6,214 bases of DNA from a virus (taxonomy: Duplodnaviria > Heunggongvirae > Uroviricota > Caudoviricetes). A model generated the notes under the pieces. That model saw nothing but the letters and a program-made list of their open reading frames with translations, made no database searches and was not told where the DNA came from. The stretch lies in IMG/VR virus record IMGVR_UViG_3300014522_000013; one strand, written 5' to 3'. Shown one piece after another: positions 105-6,177 of this stretch (within the stretch, counting starts at the first letter, position 1; every line of letters begins with the position of its first letter). The translations under genes and the position numbers were made by a program.

Positions 105-379
105 TTTTCCTCTTTTGGTTTATGAATCTGAATGGTCATGCCACTTTGAGTGGTGACTACAACGACAGAACCAGGCTGAAGACTGTTAAGATTGAATGCT
201 TCGTAAAACGAAGCCAAGGCCAGCGCTTTTTTATTCTTTCGGTTCCACCAACGCCATCCATTGCTACAGGCTACACTGACAATCCACTGTCCACTCCTGT
301 AAGCCATATAAAACCAGATGAGCAAAACCTGAATGAATGCTATCCAGTCAATAATCGTATATTTCGCGAAGGAGACCAT
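101..379 (-). CDS. small hydrophobic (probable membrane) protein, about 92 aa, function unknown
   Basis: Track ORF 101..382 begins at a TTG; the adjacent ATG at 379..377 has AGGAGG 7 nt upstream and overlaps the TGA of the DUF551 gene as TGATG. N-terminal stretch YTIIDWIAFIQVLLIWFYMAY is strongly hydrophobic, followed by a basic patch WRWWNRKNKK. Confidence 0.6.
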   Translation of the reverse strand: MVSFAKYTIIDWIAFIQVLLIWFYMAYRSGQWIVSVACSNGWRWWNRKNKKALALASFYEAFNLNSLQPGSVVVVTTQSGMTIQIHKPKEEK

Positions 380-1194
380 CAATTAACCTCCTGCGGCGGT
401 TCCGGTAGAGGCATCCAGTACAAGGCGTTCCCTAACCACGATAAAGTGCCGTCGCTCAACTCCACGTATTCCCCTTGTACCTGTCCTGCCATATACTCGC
501 CGTGCTTTGAATAAATTAAAATCCAATCATCTTGAGCGGGCATTCGCTCACTACAGCTTATCCAACCATCCGGAGTTACCGGATAGTTGCCAGCCAGTCT
601 ACGCAAAACAGTCTTAACCGCCTCAATACGGTCATCATCGCAACTTTCCAGCGTATCTATGCGATCGAGGATGATGATGGCGTTATCAATATCAGGATTG
701 CCGGTCCACTCATTACCGCGATTGGATTCGGCAGCCTGGTTGCCGCGTACTGGTTGATTCTCGGCTTTACCCTGTCTGTCGTCGCTGCATGAATGCCCTT
801 CCAGCCAGACCAGTGCTTGTCGCATGAAATACGCAATATGCTTGCCGTGGTAATCGTCTTCATCGATGTGAAAAGCGATACTGCGGATATATTCAATTGC
901 GTTTTCAATGGCCTCCGGCGTTACCGGAGTTGGTCCATCGAATTCGGGCATGTCAGGACCTTTTCTGATAGCTTTAGCCAGCTCCAGCGGGTCATCGTAA
1001 AGCCAGTCGCCAGTTTGTGGGTGATTTGCTTCTGCAAGCTGCGCAGCCCATTCAAGACCATCTTTTTGACCTTGGAGATAATCAAGCGGCAACTCTTCAT
1101 GATTACTTGCAGGTTCGGCACCATGAAGCATGGCGTCGCTCCGCTCTATGCCATCCAGCGCGATTCGCAGTGCCTGATAGTCAATCTTGCTCAC
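379..1194 (-). CDS. prophage protein with C-terminal DUF551-like domain (271 aa), GTG start
   Basis: C-terminal segment WISCSERMPAQDDWILIYS...YWMPLPEPP matches the remembered DUF551 signature (W-I-x-V/C-x-E-R-x-P ... W-M-P-L-P-E-P-P) common in enterobacterial prophages. GTG start at 1194 is preceded by AAGGAGG with a 6-nt spacer and overlaps the upstream stop as GTGA. Acidic N-terminal half. Confidence 0.78.
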   Translation of the reverse strand: MSKIDYQALRIALDGIERSDAMLHGAEPASNHEELPLDYLQGQKDGLEWAAQLAEANHPQTGDWLYDDPLELAKAIRKGPDMPEFDGPTPVTPEAIENAIEYIRSIAFHIDEDDYHGKHIAYFMRQALVWLEGHSCSDDRQGKAENQPVRGNQAAESNRGNEWTGNPDIDNAIIILDRIDTLESCDDDRIEAVKTVLRRLAGNYPVTPDGWISCSERMPAQDDWILIYSKHGEYMAGQVQGEYVELSDGTLSWLGNALYWMPLPEPPQEVN

Positions 1195-1766
1195 TGGTTG
1201 CCTCCTTTGCGAAGCTGGGCAGCAAAGTCAACTAACCACTCAGTCATTTCAACCTTCCCTACCAGGTCTGAACCAGGGTGCATACAGCAATCACTCTGCG
1301 CCGCTTTGAAATCCTTATACTCATATTCTTGGACCACCAGATTTTTTGCAGCTTCTATAGCAGCATCCACCCCCTGCGCCCGCACTTCAGACAGGAAAGC
1401 ATCAGTGGCTGGAATGGGCTTTTGTGGTGATATAGCAATGCGAATTGTCTCAAGGTCTGGATCTGTTTCCGCTGCTGGCACCTTGATATAACCCATCTGC
1501 ACCCCATTCATGATGAACCTGCGACGGTCATCACATATCGCCTTTAGCCCCGCACTCTCCGCTGCCAGCGCCGCGCACTTGGCCTCAAGGTTATCAATCG
1601 TGATTCCAGCAGAACGACACTCCCGCAACGCCGTTTCCAGTTTTGATTCAAGCTCACCGAACTTACGCACCAGATATTCAGCGTTTGTTTCGTTAACCTT
1701 TAAATCTCGTGGGATGCATTTACCTTTCAGAAATCCATCCATCTCAATTAGTGACATTTGTTTCAT
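1191..1766 (-). CDS. coiled-coil prophage protein, possibly Ea22-like family; function unknown
   Basis: Track ORF 1191..1784 starts at a GTG with no Shine-Dalgarno; the in-frame ATG at 1766 ([12 protein letters not shown]...) is the more likely start. Central segment [38 protein letters not shown] looks coiled-coil. Stop overlaps the DUF551 gene start. Ea22-like assignment is by position and general character only. Confidence 0.65.
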
Positions 1767-1923
1767 TTCTTCCCACTCCGCCACATCGCATTCAGATATT
1801 TGTTTTGATTTACTGAAGGAAAAGAATTTCTCTTAAGCAATTCCTCTCTCGATGGCATTGGCTTTACTCGTTGGCGAATAATCATTTCTGCCGGAAGAAT
1901 GCCGGGATTGTATGCAAGTCCTC

Positions 1924-2205
1924 TCATGATTTACTCTCCACTAACTGGTCAATAGCCATGCTAAGTGACATACCTAAAGTTTCGATATGCTGCTGAATAT
2001 CCTGTAGCGTCTGCGCCTGAGATAACAGGATTTCACGGTTGCATAACTCTTTAACCAGATGCTCAAACTTGCTGTAATAACCGATACGACTTAGTGTTTC
2101 TTTCCCTGCATTCTCGCCTTCTTTGATAATTCCTCTTTCACTAAGAATCAGGTCGTGTTTGGTTCCGGTAATAACGTATTTTCCGAGGTCGATGTTTAGC
2201 TTCAT
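1924..2205 (-). CDS. hypothetical phage protein (93 aa)
   Basis: ATG at 2205 with GGAGT 8 nt upstream; 16 nt after the stop of the preceding gene; codon usage consistent with neighbours. No family recognised. Confidence 0.65.
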
Positions 2206-2221
2206 TGTTAATTACTCCATG

Positions 2222-2536
2222 TTAATTTATTCGTATGCCTGCTCTTTCTTCATCGAGTTTTTTTAGCTTGTATCGCATAGCTCTTACTGAATAAATTGAG
2301 CGGCAGGTTGCAATTGCTATTTCTTCTGCGGAGAACTTACCGAAAAGTGATACTTCGGCTCTTGTCCAGCGTCTTCCACGAAGTCGGCTAACAATGTCAG
2401 CGCCAATCCTTGTTGCTTTTGCCATTACTGCTTTTTCAGTCCTTTCCAGTTTTTCAGCGATAACTTGAACTGGCATTGTCGCCGCTACTTCGCGCAAGAA
2501 ATCGACTTCCCATTTCTCCCATGGAGTCTTTTTCAT
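2222..2536 (-). CDS. small protein with two internal HTH-like (Myb/SANT-like W-x3-E-V-x2-L...I-A...R-x4-A-x-R-x-K-L) repeats; putative DNA-binding protein
   Basis: Residues ~5-45 (PWEKWEVDFLREVAATMPVQVIAEKLERTEKAVMAKATRIG) and ~56-94 (RWTRAEVSLFGKFSAEEIAIATCRSIYSVRAMRYKLKKL) align as a duplicated motif. ATG at 2536 lies 11 nt after the Gp157 stop and has only a weak Shine-Dalgarno, so re-initiation is likely. Confidence 0.65.
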   Translation of the reverse strand: MKKTPWEKWEVDFLREVAATMPVQVIAEKLERTEKAVMAKATRIGADIVSRLRGRRWTRAEVSLFGKFSAEEIAIATCRSIYSVRAMRYKLKKLDEERAGIRIN

Positions 2537-2547
2537 AGTCGATACCG

Positions 2548-3030
2548 TTATTTGATAAGAAGTGAAGGTTTCCCAACCTTGAGTTGAGCGCCGGGGATAT
2601 TTATTCCTGCTTTTAGTTGGTGCTTGATTGCCAACTTGTCGGCTTTAATTGTCGTTTCGAACTCAACGTATTCAGGAGGAAGGGCGCTTGAGTCGATGAT
2701 TTCTACAGTTTCTGACGGTTTGCGGATTGTTACCTGGTGAATACCTGCTCTAATCTTTTTCTTGCCAACCATTTCAAGCGATGACGCTATATATGATTTG
2801 ATGCTGTCAATCTTATTTTGAATTACTGCGGCTCGCTCATTCAGCGACTTTGCCTCTTCCTTGAGGCGTTCAGCATAACCAGATTCATTTTTAATGACGG
2901 AAAGAAGTTGCTCTATTTTATCGGTAAATTCTCCTTCCATGCCTTCTATTGTGTCAGCAATCATCTCTGGTTCTAAATCTGAATCCATCAATTTTGCGTA
3001 TTCATTGGCAATTTCATACAGTTTGCTCAC
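2548..3030 (-). CDS. Siphovirus Gp157-family protein (recombination-module accessory protein), about 160 aa
   Basis: Translation (..SKLYEIANEYAKLMDSDLEPEMIADTIEGMEGEFTDKIEQL...IPGAQLKVGKPSLLIK) has the size and pattern remembered for the Sipho_Gp157 family. Track start is a TTG at 3036 that abuts GGAGG; the GTG at 3030 has GGAGG with a 6-nt spacer and is the likely start. Overlaps the RecT 3' end by 17 nt. Confidence 0.78.
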   Translation of the reverse strand: MSKLYEIANEYAKLMDSDLEPEMIADTIEGMEGEFTDKIEQLLSVIKNESGYAERLKEEAKSLNERAAVIQNKIDSIKSYIASSLEMVGKKKIRAGIHQVTIRKPSETVEIIDSSALPPEYVEFETTIKADKLAIKHQLKAGINIPGAQLKVGKPSLLIK

Positions 3031-3916
3031 TGGCAACCTCCAGTTTCGCTTTGCATTCTGCGTAAATGGCTTGTACGTTCTGCTGCAATTTCATTCCAGA
3101 TGTCAGGCGATATGCTTCTGCAAAATATCGCTTCAAATCATCCATGTTTTCTGCCTGAGCCATTTCATCGCAAAGAAGTTGTGCTTTATCCATTATTTCC
3201 TGCTGGCGTTTCCGTTCATCTTCGCGGATATCTTCCTCTGATTTGTGCGGCATAACTGGTTCCTGATGCATACCTTCATCTTCGTTAAGAAGGTGAATGG
3301 CATTATCCAGTCGCTGGGCTTTAGGCCAGTATTTGCTGGCGCGTTTAACTATTGTTTTACGCGCCATCTCTTCCCAGAATGTTTTCCACGGTCCATTCTT
3401 TGCCTTGCTCGTTGCTTCCACAGCTTTAATTTCTGCCAGACTCATTTCTTCAGTCAGGTAGTCACCATCTGCTGTTTTAACCGTGCAATAACCTCCAACA
3501 ATAGAGCCTCGCTCACCAAATGCGTTGTATTTGTGGGTTGGTGCTGAATCAAGGCCATTTGATTCATAGGTGTCGTTTGAGTACACCAGTTTGCATTGCC
3601 CCCACTTAATTGATCCTGTCGATTGCGCAAGATGAAGTAATCCCATGTAACTGATATCAAGGCACACCATGCCGTCGCGAGGAACCAGATAAGCCAGTTT
3701 GCTGGCCGGGTTTAAGGTGATGCCGATCGCCGCAACATTGATGATGGCGTTCTGTGCGCTGGTTGGATTTGCCAGTGCTGTTTTAGCCAGGTAATCGTTT
3801 TTCTGGAAATACTGAATTGCAAACTGGCTTTCCTTAGCCCATGTCACCGTCTGTTCAGTCAATGCTCCGCAGAATAACTGCTCCTGCTGTTTAACGAATT
3901 CAACGATATTGCTCAT
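3014..3916 (-). CDS. recT: RecT-family single-strand annealing protein (phage recombinase)
   Basis: 300-aa translation carries the RecT/Red-beta core motif ...KNGPWKTFWEEMARKTIVKRASKYWPK..., comparable to E. coli RecT ...NGPWVTHWEEMAKKTAIRRLFKYLPV.... ATG at 3916 overlaps the stop of the upstream 103-aa gene as ATGA; GGAGAAG Shine-Dalgarno upstream. Confidence 0.9.
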   Translation of the reverse strand: MSNIVEFVKQQEQLFCGALTEQTVTWAKESQFAIQYFQKNDYLAKTALANPTSAQNAIINVAAIGITLNPASKLAYLVPRDGMVCLDISYMGLLHLAQSTGSIKWGQCKLVYSNDTYESNGLDSAPTHKYNAFGERGSIVGGYCTVKTADGDYLTEEMSLAEIKAVEATSKAKNGPWKTFWEEMARKTIVKRASKYWPKAQRLDNAIHLLNEDEGMHQEPVMPHKSEEDIREDERKRQQEIMDKAQLLCDEMAQAENMDDLKRYFAEAYRLTSGMKLQQNVQAIYAECKAKLEVASEQTV

Positions 3917-4224
3917 GCAGCTTCTCCAAAAATGTGTCTGCGTTTGAATATTGCGAAGGCATATTCAGCCTTAACTCTTTCGGTTATTGCATCCCAGAAC
4001 CATTCAGCGGCTTTTTCCTGATAGTTACAGTCATCATCTTCCAGCCAGTCGATAGCGTCCTTAGTGTGTTCATCTGGTTTATATGAGCGAAGCATTTCGC
4101 TTATTGGGTCGCAACGTTTGCAGAGACGATCAACTTCACTGTTGATTCGTTCGTAATCTTCATCAGTAAAACTTGCGATTATTTGCGATATTTCACGCTT
4201 ATCATTCAGAGTCAGAATCATCAT
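3913..4224 (-). CDS. hypothetical acidic 103-aa protein translationally coupled to recT; function unknown (possible host-nuclease modulator, by position only)
   Basis: ATG-ATG start at 4224/4221 with AGGAG 4-7 nt upstream; ATGA overlap with recT. Acidic and Trp/Cys-containing (DWLEDDDCNYQEKAAEWFWDAITERVKAEYAFAIF). No similarity to lambda Gam recognised. Confidence 0.72.
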   Translation of the reverse strand: MMILTLNDKREISQIIASFTDEDYERINSEVDRLCKRCDPISEMLRSYKPDEHTKDAIDWLEDDDCNYQEKAAEWFWDAITERVKAEYAFAIFKRRHIFGEAA

Positions 4225-4309
4225 CTTTCTCCTGTTCTTTGTGCTGATTGAGCATTTTGTTCATCTGACGAATGAATTCTTCGTCTGACCAGTTATCTGT
4301 AAAACTCAT
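4202..4309 (-). CDS. candidate 35-aa acidic micro-protein (MSFTDNWSDEEFIRQMNKMLNQHKEQEKDDDSDSE)
   Basis: Hand translation; ATG at 4309..4307 overlaps the TGA of the Kil-like ORF (4308..4306) as ATGA, and its 3' end overlaps the 103-aa gene start by 23 nt. Weak Shine-Dalgarno. Not in the supplied track (below its length threshold). Confidence 0.3.
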   Translation of the reverse strand: MSFTDNWSDEEFIRQMNKMLNQHKEQEKDDDSDSE

Positions 4310-4458
4310 TTCCTGCGATACCACGGAAGGTTGATAGCTGATTTCATCGCTTTATTTGCTTCAAACCACATTTTTGAATCACCAATAAATCTGGCTATTA
4401 CTGCTTTGTTCTGTGCAGCACGAAGCATCTGGTGATTAATGGCTATTTCATTGCGCAT
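4306..4458 (-). CDS. kil: Kil-like small protein (candidate host cell-division inhibitor), 50 aa
   Basis: Hand translation MRNEIAINHQMLRAAQNKAVIARFIGDSKMWFEANKAMKSAINLPWYRRK; GAGG Shine-Dalgarno 7 nt upstream of ATG 4458. Its start overlaps the 3' end of the cIII homologue by 16 nt, as kil overlaps cIII in lambda. The FIGD-x-KM segment recalls lambda Kil, but that recollection is uncertain. Confidence 0.5.
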   Translation of the reverse strand: MRNEIAINHQMLRAAQNKAVIARFIGDSKMWFEANKAMKSAINLPWYRRK

Positions 4459-4574
4459 AATAAGACCTCAACTCTTTTCCATCCGTCACGTAATTTANNN
4501 NNNNNNNNNTCAAGTAAAGATTCATTTAATTGGAAGGCACCCATGCGAGCGCCTCCCGCGATTGCGTAAATCAT
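4443..4574 (-). CDS. cIII: CIII-like protein (FtsH/HflB protease inhibitor that stabilises CII), about 43 aa; four and a half codons are masked by the N-run
   Basis: Hand translation MIYAIAGGARMGAFQLNESLL-[E/D]-xxx-[x]-KLRDGWKRVEVLLCAMK against lambda CIII MQYAIAGWPVAGCPSESLLERITRKLRDGWKRLIDIL.... Readable bases in the two partly masked codons (GAN and NNT) fit Glu and Arg(CGT) of lambda ERITR. AAGGAA Shine-Dalgarno 7 nt upstream of ATG 4574. Missed by the ORF track because of the Ns. Confidence 0.82.
   Translation of the reverse strand: MIYAIAGGARMGAFQLNESLLXXXXXKLRDGWKRVEVLLCAMK
4498..4509. other. 12-nt run of N (masked or unresolved bases) inside the cIII-like coding sequence
   Basis: Literal n characters in the sequence; flanking reading frame is continuous if the run length is correct. 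Confidence 0.95.
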
Positions 4575-4598
4575 GGGTGGTTCCTTATGTTGGTTTTA

Positions 4599-5567
4599 TT
4601 AGTAGGTTATTTTTGTTGCGAATACTTCGCCTTTTACGATGGCTGTTATGATATTTTTAGCAACATCTTCTGGTGCGCCAACCTTGATAAGGTCAGCAAG
4701 TATTTTGTTATTTACTTCTTTCCGGTGAGCTTTATCCTTTGCTCTACGCTCTTCTTCGTCCTTGATTCTTTTTTCTTCTGCTATTCTGGCTTGCTCTTTT
4801 GCTTCAGCCTCGCGCCGGATTCGTTCAGCCTCCTCCTGTGCTTTTCGGCGTTCTGCTTCAATTGCCGCCTGCTTTTCTCTTTCAGCTCGTTCTGCTGCCT
4901 CTTTTGCTTCGCGCTGTGCTCGTTGCTCGGCTTCAATGCGTTCACGCTCTGCACGTTCCGCTGCGGCCTTAGCTTCTGCTTCTCGCCTTGCTGCTGCTTC
5001 AATTTCGGCTTTTGCCTTTGCTTCGGCTTCAGCTCTGGCTTTCTCTTCAGCTTCTCTTTGTAAGCGTTCTTCATGCTCTCGCTTTTCCTGCTCCGCTTTG
5101 AGTCTTGCCTCTTCTCTTTGGCGGTCAAATTCGCGATCCATCAAAATCGCTATTTCATGGTCAGACTCAATTTGCTTTGCGAGAGCTTCAGCTGCTGCCT
5201 TAGCTTCTTCTTCGGCTTTAATCCGCGCCTGTTCTTCCTCATAATCAGTAAGAGGCTGGCGCGCCTTGGCTTTCAGTTCATCAAGGCGATCGCGCACTGT
5301 CTTGCGGTTGGCATCAATTAGCTTTGGAATTTCCTTCAGTTCAGCAACAAGGTCTTTGCCAAGACCATCGAGATATGTTTTCGTCTGCGCAACTTTATAC
5401 GCCAGAGAAGCGATCTCCTTTCTGCCCTTTGCCGTTGTGATATCAGGCACAAAGGACATAACTTCACGTTCAACCTTTTGAAGGATTTCTTCAATCTGGT
5501 CGGCAGACTGAAATACAGTCATTGCATTTGCTTTTTCAATAACAACTAAATCTGTTACTTCACTCAT
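4599..5567 (-). CDS. 322-aa protein: globular N-terminal domain (~105 aa), ~170-aa Glu/Arg/Ala/Lys-rich predicted single alpha-helix or coiled-coil, short C-terminal domain; function unknown
   Basis: Long ORF with GGAGG Shine-Dalgarno 4-5 nt upstream of ATG 5567. Central region is runs such as EAEAKAKAEIEAAARREAEAKAAAERAERERIEAEQRAQREAKEAAERAEREKQAAIEAERRKAQEEAERIRREAEAKEQARIAEEKRIKDEEERRAKDKAHRKE. Stop lies 24 nt upstream of cIII. Confidence 0.85.
   Translation of the reverse strand: MSEVTDLVVIEKANAMTVFQSADQIEEILQKVEREVMSFVPDITTAKGRKEIASLAYKVAQTKTYLDGLGKDLVAELKEIPKLIDANRKTVRDRLDELKAKARQPLTDYEEEQARIKAEEEAKAAAEALAKQIESDHEIAILMDREFDRQREEARLKAEQEKREHEERLQREAEEKARAEAEAKAKAEIEAAARREAEAKAAAERAERERIEAEQRAQREAKEAAERAEREKQAAIEAERRKAQEEAERIRREAEAKEQARIAEEKRIKDEEERRAKDKAHRKEVNNKILADLIKVGAPEDVAKNIITAIVKGEVFATKITY
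4745..5255 (-). repeat. compositionally biased, codon-repetitive DNA (CT/GC-rich on the plus strand) encoding the E/R/A/K-rich segment of the 322-aa protein
   Basis: Plus strand is dominated by gcttc/ctgc/ttct-type units without exact long tandem repeats; it generates several spurious overlapping ORFs in other frames (4530..5063 +, 4762..5244 +, 4781..5128 -). Confidence 0.6.
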
Positions 5568-5600: not shown

Positions 5601-5678
5601 NNNNNNNNNNNNNNNNNNNNNNNNNNNNNNNNNNNNNNNNNNNNNNNNNNNNNNNNNNNNNNNNNNNNNNNNNNNNNN
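5601..5678. other. 78-nt run of N (masked or unresolved bases) between the AT-rich orphan gene and the 322-aa gene
   Basis: Literal n characters; content cannot be read. Followed on the minus strand by ccaatgtgagggcgaTTTTTTga and then the Shine-Dalgarno of the 322-aa gene. Confidence 0.95.
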
Positions 5679-5706: not shown

Positions 5707-6177
5707 CTAATAAAACACCCAATTTTCTGTTTCTTGGTTGTGTCCAAAGTTATATTCAATATCTGGTGTTGATGTATCAATATTCTTCATCCCATCAACA
5801 AGAGTTGATACAACAGCTAAATCTTGTTTGATTCGCATCAAATGGTATTTCTTCCGGCGCAATAAACTTTCAATGGCAAGTTTCTTCGTTGGGAATGCAA
5901 AAGATCTTTCTGCATTTTTTGCTACTTTCTTAATTGCATATCTATTTCTCCTTTGTTTCCATTCCTGTAACCACTGATTTGGTGCTGGTTTAAAATTAAC
6001 AATCCAATGCGCAGGAACCAACCATGCATAATGCTCTGTCTGATGAAAAGCTATATATTGAAGTGCGAATATTTTGATCCCATCTTCTTCAACTGTCGCT
6101 TGGAATCTCCAGAAAACAGGCATTCCATCATGTTCAGTTTCTGATTCAGGAAAAGGTACGCTCCATGATTTTGTCAT
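5707..6177 (-). CDS. 156-aa orphan protein encoded in an AT-rich segment; function unknown (candidate accessory/moron gene)
   Basis: ATG at 6177 with GAGGTGA Shine-Dalgarno about 5 nt upstream. By eye the segment 5680..6214 is roughly 30-38% GC against roughly 45-60% for the rest. No family recognised (MTKSWSVPFPESETEHDGMPVFWRF...RRKKYHLMRIKQDL...). Confidence 0.75.
   Translation of the reverse strand: MTKSWSVPFPESETEHDGMPVFWRFQATVEEDGIKIFALQYIAFHQTEHYAWLVPAHWIVNFKPAPNQWLQEWKQRRNRYAIKKVAKNAERSFAFPTKKLAIESLLRRKKYHLMRIKQDLAVVSTLVDGMKNIDTSTPDIEYNFGHNQETENWVFY

What the first reader, a model, noticed from the sequence alone, without database searches (positions are those of the whole stretch)
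2548..3030. Gp157-family gene in a lambda-type cIII/kil context (mosaic recombination module)
The Sipho_Gp157 family was defined in siphoviruses of Gram-positive bacteria, where it accompanies RecT or Erf. Here it sits in an enterobacterial operon with lambda-like cIII and kil, illustrating module exchange. Its function remains poorly defined.
Basis: partly seen in the sequence, partly recalled or inferred. Interest (0 to 1): 0.4.

Follow-up and report, generated by a model that had tools for sequence, protein, structure and literature searches.

The report
Gp157: RecT's partner gene in prophage
This is a real, already-annotated prophage gene of the "Gp157" family that sits directly after the RecT recombinase gene, in the place where sister phages carry an exonuclease gene. 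It is common in E. coli prophages and has never been tested experimentally, and it most likely helps RecT work on broken DNA ends.

Summary
The minus-strand ORF 2548..3030 (160 aa, GTG start, GGAGG 6 nt upstream) matches Pfam PF05565 Sipho_Gp157 over its full length (E 2.5e-38). It overlaps the end of recT by 17 nt and lies downstream of genuine kil (PF06301) and cIII (PF02061) genes.

It is not new. Identical DNA is annotated "siphovirus Gp157 family protein" in E. coli, and 299 of 5426 complete E. coli genomes carry it. Coliphages HK140, mEpX1, Kapi1, Louie and HK639 also have it, labelled "Mu Gam-like end protection".

Module exchange among lambdoid phages is real: HK446 has Erf/Abc2 and SEN22 has an exonuclease pair between the same flanks. 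A Gram-positive import is not supported. The enterobacterial clade is broad and at most 35% identical to anything else, and the nearest RecT relatives are from gammaproteobacterial phages.

The main new point concerns RecT. RecTs with 74-75% identical cores are followed either by a YqaJ exonuclease or by Gp157, and the RecT C-terminal tail co-varies with that partner.

Similarity to Mu Gam is weak but above shuffled controls; fold searches did not confirm it.

Best reading (about 0.45): a Gam-like DNA-end-binding partner of RecT that replaces the exonuclease. Interest is low to moderate.

The parts
2548..3030 (-). Gp157-family CDS, 160 aa, GTG start. Residues 1-45 form an acidic helical N-terminus carrying the family's best-conserved motif (L4 Y5 ... 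D26 T27 L E ... K38). Residues about 46-88 form a long helix. Residues 89-160 form a basic beta-rich domain.
   Evidence: PF05565 E 2.5e-38, full length. phrog_253 E 8e-55. AF2 model pLDDT 83: helices 3-15 and 21-88, then six or seven strands and one helix. Net charge -9 / 0 / +6 by region, conserved across the family. Third-position substitution bias.
3037..3041 (-). GGAGG ribosome-binding site, 6 nt before the GTG start. It lies inside the last codons of recT, which suggests translational coupling.
   Evidence: Sequence read. Identical junction in HK140, Dewey and Gally.
3281..3916 (-). RecT annealing core (residues 1-212).
   Evidence: PF03837 E 2.5e-33. 74-75% identical to RecT of phiON-2011 and Aeromonas phage 56, and 75-84% to HK639 and Pantoea PA-1.
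3014..3280 (-). RecT C-terminal tail (residues 213-300 plus stop). This part co-varies with the downstream partner gene.
   Evidence: Tail identity is 43-55% among Gp157-linked RecTs and 6-22% to exonuclease-linked RecTs, at equal core identity.
3913..4224 (-). 103-aa ORF (phrog_3486, no Pfam match) immediately upstream of recT. It is part of the cassette exchanged relative to HK446. A lambda Gam gene occupies its slot in phage Dewey.
2222..2536 (-). 104-aa phrog_323 'D5-like' ORF immediately downstream of gp157. This is the last gene of the cassette exchanged relative to HK446.
   Evidence: Weak similarity to Mu gp9, the gene next to Mu gam.
4306..4458 (-). kil.
   Evidence: PF06301 E 2.7e-19.
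4443..4574 (-). cIII (contains the N-masked run 4498-4509).
   Evidence: PF02061 E 1.3e-9. N run located.
2210..4259 (.). Mosaic cassette relative to HK446: 103-aa ORF, recT, gp157 and the D5-like ORF. HK446 has Erf, an SSB-like gene and Abc2 here.
   Evidence: Local blastn breakpoints. HK446 annotation.
2537..3912 (.). Inner mosaic unit relative to SEN22: exactly recT+gp157. SEN22 has a DUF3799 PD-(D/E)XK exonuclease plus a 189-aa ORF here.

Best explanation
Gp157 is the accessory partner of the RecT single-strand-annealing protein in an exonuclease-free recombination module of a lambdoid prophage. It is made from the pL early transcript and is probably translationally coupled to RecT. The proposed mechanism has three parts. 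It dimerises through its long helix. Its basic C-terminal, Mu-Gam-like domain binds double-stranded DNA ends and shields them from RecBCD. It is tethered to RecT through RecT's C-terminal tail, so that RecT is delivered to ends, rolling-circle tails or gaps. Shown here: family membership, operon position, occupancy of the exonuclease slot, co-variation with the RecT tail, and absence of any phage exonuclease, lambda Gam or Abc2 in four complete genomes that carry it. Inferred: DNA-end binding, dimerisation, contact with the RecT tail, and protection from RecBCD.
For: (1) Tight linkage to SSAP genes of unrelated folds, always abutting or overlapping. RecT is followed by Gp157 here (17-nt overlap) and in HK639 and Pantoea PA-1 (4-nt overlaps). 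Sak4 is followed by Gp157 in Klebsiella phage VLCpiS13c. Gp157 is followed by Sak4 in S. thermophilus phage 2972. Gp157 sits upstream of erf or sak4 in Firmicutes phages, alternating there with true Mu Gam homologues (PMC8093625).
(2) Exonuclease slot. RecTs whose cores are 74-75% identical to this one (phiON-2011, Aeromonas phage 56), and 50-54% identical (Yersinia vB_YenM_12, Marinomonas P12026), have an annotated exonuclease after recT: directly after it in three, and beyond an inserted homing endonuclease in Yersinia vB_YenM_12. YqaJ (PF09588) membership was confirmed for phiON-2011 and Aeromonas phage 56. RecTs that are 75-84% identical (HK639, PA-1) have Gp157 there.
(3) The RecT tail (residues 213-300) is 43-55% identical among Gp157-linked RecTs but only 6-22% identical to exonuclease-linked ones. 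This includes phiON-2011, which infects the same host species. In lambda, the Red-beta C-terminal domain is the Exo- and SSB-binding element (PMC6393309, title and abstract seen).
(4) The annotated genomes of HK140, Kapi1, Louie and mEpX1 contain no Exo/RecE/YqaJ, lambda Gam or Abc2.
(5) Gam link. Of 91 diverse family members, 23 also hit PF07352 Phage_Mu_Gam at E<=1 (best 5.3e-6). Where coordinates were printed, the matches run collinearly over Gp157 about 45-160 and PF07352 about 17-148. The HK639 orthologue scores E 0.0038. The hhalign score of 27.8/24.7 exceeded all 100 whole-alignment shuffles and all 100 within-domain column shuffles (z 4.6-7). PHROGs labels both phrog_253 (Gp157) and phrog_491 (Mu Gam) 'Mu Gam-like end protection'.
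(6) The C-terminal domain is basic (+6), as expected for a DNA-binding surface.
Confidence: 0.45

Rival explanations
1. Gp157 is an SSAP accessory factor that does not bind DNA ends itself. Instead it recruits or re-programmes a host nuclease or loader, as P22 Abc2 does with RecBCD, or it helps the SSAP onto SSB-coated single-stranded DNA. The phage therefore needs no exonuclease of its own.
For: Gp157 occupies the slot of the exonuclease. The cassette containing it replaces the Erf/Abc2 cassette of HK446. The conserved, strongly acidic N-terminus (net -9, family mean -8.2) resembles a protein-interaction or DNA-mimic surface more than a DNA-binding one. Gp157 works beside three unrelated SSAP folds. 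No structural match to Gam or Ku was found.
Against: There is no similarity to Abc2, lambda Gam or any known mediator. Dewey combines it with lambda Gam, which would block a RecBCD-hijack route. The weak but collinear Gam signal is left unexplained.
Confidence: 0.25
2. Gp157 belongs to the replication machinery (origin or replisome accessory) rather than to recombination, and its adjacency to SSAP genes only reflects the layout of early operons.
For: In S. thermophilus and Klebsiella phages it lies among helicase, SSB and primase genes. In Sfi21-type phages it lies in the cro-ori region.
Against: In this window the replication genes are in the other (pR) operon, as the HK140, Kapi1 and Louie maps show. 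In SEN22 it is exchanged as a unit with recT. The RecT tail co-varies with it.
Confidence: 0.1
3. Gp157 is itself a small, unrecognised nuclease that resects ends for RecT.
For: It sits exactly where YqaJ exonucleases sit. The Foldseek/BFVD tail of hits includes phage PD-(D/E)XK, RecB-like and COG5377 exonucleases of 300-400 aa (E 0.013-0.7).
Against: There is no nuclease family hit. The near-invariant residues (L4, Y5, D26, T27, K38, Y80, P118, K132, G142, G147) do not form a D...(D/E)xK or other known catalytic set. The protein is only 160 aa, half of it a single helix. The BFVD hits are weak and partial.
Confidence: 0.07
4. Gp157 is a phage-resistance (superinfection exclusion or abortive infection) protein. 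Pfam-derived labels such as 'resistance protein' imply this, as does, from memory, the Pfam description of PF05565.
For: Only labels support this: 'MAG TPA: resistance protein', 'Resistance protein' in BFVD, and the discussion in PMC6356513.
Against: The paper that discusses the resistance label (PMC6356513, citing Foley 1998) attributes the resistance to a 302-bp non-coding origin element that acts by copy number. PMC8093625 cites the same 1998 paper for orf157 itself. There is no PADLOC match. The gene is in the lytic early pL operon and coupled to recT, not in a lysogen-expressed moron position.
Confidence: 0.03

Closest known systems
E. coli prophage protein WP_001580128.1 / phage HK140 gp40, mEpX1 gp33, Kapi1_011, Louie CDS0030
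   Same: Identical DNA in E. coli MS1718 and E1. Phage copies are 95-99% identical at the protein level. Same neighbours (103-aa ORF, RecT, D5-like ORF) and same junction with recT.
   Different: Nothing of substance. The upstream context varies: kil is present here and in Kapi1 and Louie but absent from HK140 and MS1718. Some records annotate a shorter 146-aa product starting at an internal ATG.
Sipho_Gp157 prototypes: S. thermophilus phage Sfi21 orf157 / phage 2972 gp33
   Same: Same Pfam family and length. About 30% identity over 94% of the protein. Directly abuts an SSAP gene, with no exonuclease nearby.
   Different: There it lies upstream of a Sak4 (RecA-like) or Erf annealase inside the replication module. 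Here it lies downstream of RecT in a lambda-type pL operon.
Phage Mu Gam (PF07352; solved relative 2P2U), the Ku-like double-strand-end binding protein
   Same: Similar size (174 versus 160 aa). The Gp157 model has a long helix followed by a small beta-rich domain; no Gam structure was examined here. Sub-threshold, collinear profile matches and above-shuffle hhalign scores. Mu Gam homologues alternate with Gp157 in the same slot next to erf or sak4. Both have a phrog_323 protein as a neighbour.
   Different: Below every curated or conventional threshold. Not recovered by fold search. Gp157 has an extra acidic N-terminal domain where Mu Gam has a short basic tail. Mu Gam acts without an SSAP partner (own knowledge).
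YqaJ / lambda Exo-type exonuclease partners of RecT and Red-beta (two-component recombinases)
   Same: Same gene position (immediately after recT and overlapping it). The same kind of partner-specific RecT tail, as expected from the Exo to Red-beta C-terminal-domain interaction (PMC6393309).
   Different: No sequence or fold similarity and no catalytic motif. This is a positional and possibly functional analogy only.
P22/HK446-type Erf + Abc2 module and lambda Gam-Bet-Exo module
   Same: Alternative cassettes in the same slot of the pL operon between kil and the DUF5405/DUF2737 genes. Dewey shows the order gam-recT-gp157, parallel to lambda's gam-bet-exo.
   Different: No homology to Abc2, lambda Gam or Exo. 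The module here has neither a known RecBCD modulator nor an exonuclease.

Membership tests
Sipho_Gp157 (PF05565 / phrog_253) | Full-length match to the family HMM above the curated cut-off | tested here: met
   132.1 bits against a cut-off of 28.6, E 2.5e-38, profile 1-162/162. phrog_253 E 8.4e-55.
Sipho_Gp157 (PF05565 / phrog_253) | Family-wide conserved residues present (L4, Y5, D26, T27, K38, Y80, P118, K132, G142, G147, I159) | tested here: met
   All are present in the window protein. Each is conserved in at least 80% of the 142 aligned sequences (the window protein plus 141 cluster representatives).
Sipho_Gp157 (PF05565 / phrog_253) | About 160-aa single-domain protein encoded next to a phage single-strand-annealing protein gene | tested here: met
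   160 aa, overlapping recT by 17 nt. The same adjacency is seen in HK639, PA-1, VLCpiS13c and 2972.
Phage_Mu_Gam (PF07352) / Ku-like end-binding proteins | HMM match above the gathering score | tested here: not met
   No hit at E<=0.1 for the window protein. The orthologue in HK639 scores 17.6 bits against a cut-off of 28.3. 23 of 91 relatives hit only sub-threshold.
Phage_Mu_Gam (PF07352) / Ku-like end-binding proteins | Significant profile-profile similarity | tested here: inconclusive
   hhalign probability 23.5% and 6.9%. The score nevertheless exceeds 100/100 column shuffles, z 4.6-7, with a collinear alignment of about 100 columns.
Phage_Mu_Gam (PF07352) / Ku-like end-binding proteins | Fold similarity to a solved member (2P2U) or to the Ku core | tested here: not met
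Phage_Mu_Gam (PF07352) / Ku-like end-binding proteins | Binds double-stranded DNA ends and blocks exonucleases | not testable with these tools
   This is a biochemical property. The only indirect evidence is the basic C-terminal domain.
Lambda Red-type two-component recombinase module (annealase + 5'-3' exonuclease, with or without Gam) | Annealase gene in the pL operon downstream of cIII and kil | tested here: met
   RecT PF03837, kil PF06301, cIII PF02061, all on one strand.
Lambda Red-type two-component recombinase module (annealase + 5'-3' exonuclease, with or without Gam) | Cognate exonuclease gene adjacent to the annealase | tested here: not met
   No ORF scanned in the window matched a nuclease family: 13 ORFs against Pfam and 9 against NCBIfam. 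None is annotated in the whole genomes of HK140, Kapi1, Louie or mEpX1.
Lambda Gam (PF06064) / Abc2 RecBCD modulators | HMM match | tested here: not met
   No such hit for any window ORF. By contrast the Dewey gam gene scores E 1.5e-50.
Anti-phage defence proteins (PADLOC-DB) | Match to any defence-system model | tested here: not met
   No hit at E<=0.01 for Gp157 or six neighbouring ORFs.

The most novel reading that the evidence does not exclude
RecT+Gp157 is a distinct, exonuclease-free kind of two-component phage recombinase. In it, a Gam/Ku-like end-binding protein with a family-specific acidic N-terminal domain docks on the RecT C-terminal tail and substitutes for the 5'-3' exonuclease. 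By extension, Gp157 would be the general end-handling partner of Erf, Sak4 and RecT annealases in hundreds of phages of both Gram-positive and Gram-negative bacteria.
Probability: 0.35. Interest if true: 0.55.

Novelty: already known. Interest (0 to 1): 0.3.

Why it matters
As a sequence feature it is routine. It is an annotated prophage gene found in about 1 in 18 complete E. coli genomes. Its value lies in an open question. Gp157 is a very large family (8007 clusters at 50% identity) that sits beside phage annealases of three unrelated folds, and no experiment on any member was found. The pattern documented here gives a concrete, testable hypothesis: Gp157 takes the exonuclease's place, and the RecT tail switches with the partner. 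If Gp157 does deliver RecT to DNA ends without a phage exonuclease, that would explain how many annealase-only phages recombine and survive RecBCD. It could also matter for recombineering with double-stranded DNA in hosts where RecE or Exo partners work poorly.

Tried and rejected
2. A separate model of the C-terminal domain, meant to escape the dominance of the long helix, reached only pLDDT 61 and was not searched.
3. PDB sequence and profile searches with alignments A1 and A2 found nothing meaningful.
4. Chi-site test, after Bobay et al. 2013 (PMC3784561), asking whether Gp157 phages behave as if RecBCD were inhibited. HK140 has 4 Chi sites, mEpX1 has 6, and Kapi1 and Louie have 0. The Abc2-carrying control HK446 has 6 Chi sites in the same structural region, five of them at positions corresponding to mEpX1's, so the count follows the structural module. 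The test is uninformative. Their supplement does not list these phages.
tblastn against annotated phages was used instead.
6. The claim in phage Gally's annotation that the downstream 104-aa ORF is P22 Abc1-like could not be confirmed. tblastn at E<=1e-3 reaches no P22 record, and the P22 stretch I fetched was the wrong region.
7. My recollection that the 322-aa coiled-coil protein might be DUF1351-like was not supported by Pfam, even at E<=10.
8. The defence reading was rejected: there is no PADLOC hit, and the label traces back to a non-coding origin element.
9. Rfam and the promoter/terminator scan found nothing beyond chance expectation.

Full report
OBSERVATION

The window is the early-left (pL-type) operon of an E. 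coli lambdoid prophage, and all of its genes are on the minus strand. It runs from 3030 down to 2548 (stop TAA at 2548-2550). It starts with GTG at 3030, which lies 6 nt after a GGAGG at 3041-3037.

Three observations support this start. The junction sequence is identical in phages HK140, Dewey and Gally. HK639 and Pantoea PA-1 have ATG at the same codon. The near-invariant family residues L4 and Y5 follow it.

The 160-aa product matches Pfam PF05565 Sipho_Gp157 end to end (E 2.5e-38, 132 bits against a cut-off of 28.6). It also matches PHROG 253 (E 8e-55). Differences from six phage orthologues fall mainly on third codon positions of this frame.

Going upstream on the same strand, the genes are:
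- RecT at 3014..3916 (PF03837, E 2.5e-33), whose last 17 nt overlap the Gp157 start.
- A 103-aa ORF at 3913..4224.
- A 40-aa ORF at 4202..4324.
- kil at 4306..4458 (PF06301, E 2.7e-19).
- cIII at 4443..4574 (PF02061, E 1.3e-9).

No Rfam family, and no excess of promoter-like or terminator-like sites, interrupts this stretch.

IS IT NEW?

No. The 483-bp gene is 100% identical to genes in E. coli MS1718 and E1 that NCBI annotates as "siphovirus Gp157 family protein" (WP_001580128.1). It is found in 299 of 5426 complete E. coli genomes, always on the chromosome. Protein copies 95-99% identical occur in coliphages Louie and mEpX1, and the surrounding DNA is 93-94% identical in vB_EcoP-683R2, Louie, HK140, mEpX1 and Kapi1. 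PHROG-based annotation calls these copies "Mu Gam-like end protection".

Orthologues at 64-97% identity occur across Salmonella, Citrobacter, Klebsiella, Raoultella, Enterobacter, Yokenella and Serratia. Phage copies at 63% and 59% are found in HK639 and Pantoea PA-1. The family is very large: an exhaustive search of 1.84 billion cluster representatives gave 8007 clusters at E<=1e-3 and 1355 at E<=1e-10.

Mosaic exchange of the recombination module among lambdoid phages is real, and I mapped it.
- HK446 shares window 1542-2209 (95.5%) and 4260-4460 (99%). Between these flanks it carries a short ORF annotated "recombinase", Erf, an SSB-like gene and Abc2. The exchanged cassette in the window is therefore 2210-4259: the 103-aa ORF, recT, gp157 and the 104-aa "D5-like" ORF.
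- SEN22 keeps both outer genes (window 2202-2536 at 84%, 3913-4309 at 97%). It replaces exactly recT+gp157 with a DUF3799 PD-(D/E)XK exonuclease plus a 189-aa ORF of unknown family.
- Dewey keeps recT, gp157 and the D5-like ORF but has a true lambda Gam (PF06064, E 1.5e-50) in place of the 103-aa ORF.

The idea that this shows a Gram-positive element moved into an enterobacterial operon is not supported.
- Among 50,697 phage genomes, tblastn finds Gp157 in 629. These include Streptococcus 230, Vibrio 100, Staphylococcus 90, Clostridium 32, Escherichia 17, Klebsiella 11 and Pseudomonas 10.
- The lambdoid clade (at least 59% identity) is at most 35% identical to everything else. It is equally distant from Salmonella or Klebsiella phages and from Listeria or Streptococcus phages.
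- The next-nearest named relatives are from Pseudomonadota.
- The nearest relatives of the accompanying RecT are RecTs of HK639, Stx2a phages, and Aeromonas, Yersinia and Marinomonas phages. Gram-positive and actinobacterial RecTs are at most 35% identical.

In Firmicutes phages the published survey places Gp157 upstream of erf or sak4. RecT there pairs with YqaJ, DUF3799 or DUF1351 (PMC8093625). The statement that Gp157 "accompanies RecT or Erf" in Gram-positive phages is therefore only half right.

WHAT IT IS: ANATOMY

An AlphaFold2 model built on 31 orthologues (pLDDT 83) has a short helix (residues 3-15) and a very long helix (21-88). These are followed by a compact C-terminal domain of six or seven short strands and one helix (92-159).

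The charge is strongly polarised, and this is conserved across 142 family sequences. Residues 1-45 have net charge -9 (family mean -8.2, sd 1.7), while residues 89-160 have +6. The best-conserved residues are L4, Y5, D26, T27, K38, Y80, P118, K132, G142 and G147. These do not form any recognisable nuclease motif.

WHAT IT IS: THE MU GAM QUESTION

PHROGs gives the same label to phrog_253 (Gp157) and phrog_491 (Mu Gam itself). I tested the link in several ways.

Evidence for the link:
- Of 91 diverse Gp157 proteins, 23 also hit PF07352 Phage_Mu_Gam at E<=1 (best 5.3e-6).
- Where coordinates were shown, the matches are collinear and nearly full length. Gp157 about 45-160 aligns to profile about 17-148 of 149.
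- The HK639 orthologue scores E 0.0038.
- Reciprocal hmmsearch matches are collinear.
- hhalign aligns about 100 columns in register. Its score of 27.8 (Mu clade) or 24.7 (Mu plus Desulfovibrio clades) compares with 12-13 (sd 2-3) for column-shuffled Gam alignments. None of 100 whole-alignment shuffles or 100 within-domain shuffles reached the real score.

Evidence against the link:
- hhalign's own probability is only 23.5% and 6.9%.
- The window protein has no PF07352 hit at E<=0.1.
- Coiled-coil families give comparable sub-threshold noise.
- Residues 1-45, the most conserved part of Gp157, have no Gam counterpart.

I conclude that a remote relationship to Mu Gam is plausible but unproven. 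Gp157 should not be filed as a Gam-family member.

WHAT IT IS: THE EXONUCLEASE SLOT AND THE RecT TAIL

This is the most informative result. I compared the window RecT with six relatives.

Exonuclease-linked RecTs:
- phiON-2011 (Stx2a phage of E. coli): core residues 1-212 are 74% identical to the window RecT.
- Aeromonas phage 56: core 75% identical.
- Yersinia vB_YenM_12: core 54% identical.
- Marinomonas P12026: core 50% identical.

In phiON-2011, Aeromonas phage 56 and Marinomonas P12026 an annotated exonuclease follows recT directly. In Yersinia vB_YenM_12 it follows after an inserted homing endonuclease. YqaJ (PF09588) membership was confirmed for phiON-2011 and Aeromonas phage 56.

Gp157-linked RecTs:
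- HK639: core 75% identical.
- Pantoea PA-1: core 84% identical.

In both of these the gene after recT is Gp157.

At equal core divergence the C-terminal tail (residues 213-300) behaves differently. It is 43-55% identical among the three Gp157-linked RecTs but only 6-22% identical between these and the exonuclease-linked ones.

Host SSB cannot explain this, because phiON-2011 and the window element both live in E. coli. In lambda, the C-terminal domain of Red-beta is the element that binds Exo and SSB (PMC6393309). The unit that has been exchanged therefore appears to be "RecT tail plus partner gene". This argues that Gp157 contacts RecT and stands in the place of the exonuclease.

Other observations fit this reading.
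- The annotated genomes of HK140, Kapi1, Louie and mEpX1 contain no Exo, RecE, YqaJ, lambda Gam or Abc2. They do carry NinB/Orf and RusA.
- Gp157 also abuts Sak4 annealases, with no exonuclease nearby, in Klebsiella phage VLCpiS13c and S. thermophilus phage 2972.
- Dewey's order gam-recT-gp157 mirrors lambda's gam-bet-exo.

MECHANISM

My best reading (about 0.45) is as follows. Gp157 is a dimeric, Gam-like DNA-end-binding accessory subunit, made together with RecT. It holds and shields double-stranded ends and delivers RecT through RecT's tail, so the module needs no exonuclease of its own.

What is shown:
- Family membership.
- Operon position and coupling to recT.
- Slot equivalence with the exonuclease.
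- Co-variation of the RecT tail with the partner.
- Absence of a phage exonuclease, lambda Gam or Abc2.

What is inferred:
- End binding.
- Dimerisation.
- Contact with RecT.
- Protection from RecBCD.

The main rival (about 0.25) keeps the partnership but has Gp157 recruit or re-programme a host nuclease or loader through its acidic N-terminus, in the manner of Abc2. Lesser rivals are:
- A replication accessory role (0.1).
- A cryptic nuclease (0.07). Weak BFVD hits to phage PD-(D/E)XK exonucleases are the only hint.
- A "resistance protein" (0.03). The paper that discusses this label attributes the resistance to a non-coding origin element that acts by copy number, and PADLOC has no match.

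A Chi-site test of RecBCD inhibition was uninformative. Chi counts follow the structural module rather than the recombination module.

VERDICT

The gene itself is already known and common. No experimental study of any Gp157 protein was found. The exonuclease-slot and RecT-tail pattern gives a specific hypothesis to test. Interest is 0.3.

Noticed in passing
window 3913..4224 (-): This 103-aa ORF (phrog_3486, no Pfam, NCBIfam or PADLOC match) travels with recT-gp157 in HK140, Kapi1 and Louie. A 312-nt ORF holds the same position in Pantoea PA-1 and in SEN22, where it sits beside the DUF3799 exonuclease pair. In phage Dewey its exact slot holds a true lambda Gam. It is therefore a candidate occupant of the 'Gam slot' (anti-RecBCD?), and nothing is known about it.
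   Followed up: partly
window 2222..2536 (-); L006 2483-2782 (Mu gp9): The 104-aa ORF after gp157 belongs to phrog_323 ('D5-like', an internally repeated HTH-like protein). This is the same PHROG as Mu gp9, which lies immediately next to Mu gam (pairwise E 1e-4). Phage Gally's authors call it Abc1-like, but tblastn does not reach P22. The adjacency of a phrog_323 protein to both Gam and Gp157 may be meaningful.
   Followed up: partly
L004 (Salmonella phage SEN22) 2827-3396 and 3396-4217: SEN22 replaces exactly recT+gp157 with a DUF3799 PD-(D/E)XK exonuclease and a 189-aa protein (phrog_11517) that has no Pfam match. If the pair is a two-component recombinase, the 189-aa protein would be an unrecognised annealase.
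   Followed up: no
L005 (phage Louie) 3528-3995; L019 (Yersinia vB_YenM_12) 2413-2901: HNH or homing endonuclease genes are inserted precisely between recT and its partner gene, in two unrelated phages. In Louie the partner is gp157; in the Yersinia phage it is the exonuclease.
   Followed up: no
BFVD hits to model md426881e9c52: Beyond Gp157-like proteins, the Foldseek list includes several 280-400-aa phage PD-(D/E)XK, RecB-like and COG5377 exonucleases (E 0.013-0.7, 100-180 aligned columns). This could reflect a Gp157-like domain fused to exonucleases, or it could be chance. The sequences could not be retrieved.
   Followed up: no
window 4599..5567 (-): This 322-aa protein has a 160-residue central stretch that is 28% Glu, 26% Ala, 16% Arg and 9% Lys. 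It is annotated 'TolA' or 'coiled-coil protein' elsewhere (phrog_1376) and lies upstream of cIII. It has no Pfam family and causes the extreme AT skew of the window at 4500-5250.
   Followed up: partly
window 4498-4509 and 5601-5678: Two runs of N (masked bases). The first lies inside cIII. The second lies between the 322-aa ORF and the 156-aa ORF at 5707..6177.
   Followed up: yes
L010 (HK140), L013 (mEpX1), L014 (HK446): All 16 Chi sites (GCTGGTGG) in these HK97/HK022-like genomes are on the same strand, and all but one lie in the structural-gene half, several at corresponding positions in different phages. This holds whether the phage carries Abc2 or RecT+Gp157. The P22-like Kapi1 and Louie have none.
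   Followed up: partly
window 1763..1927, 1924..2205, 1191..1784, 379..1194 (-): The downstream genes are typical lambdoid 'ea/nin-left' cargo: DUF2737, DUF5405 (which PHROG labels 'replication initiation protein'), an Ead/Ea22-like protein and a DUF551 protein. None is functionally characterised.
   Followed up: no
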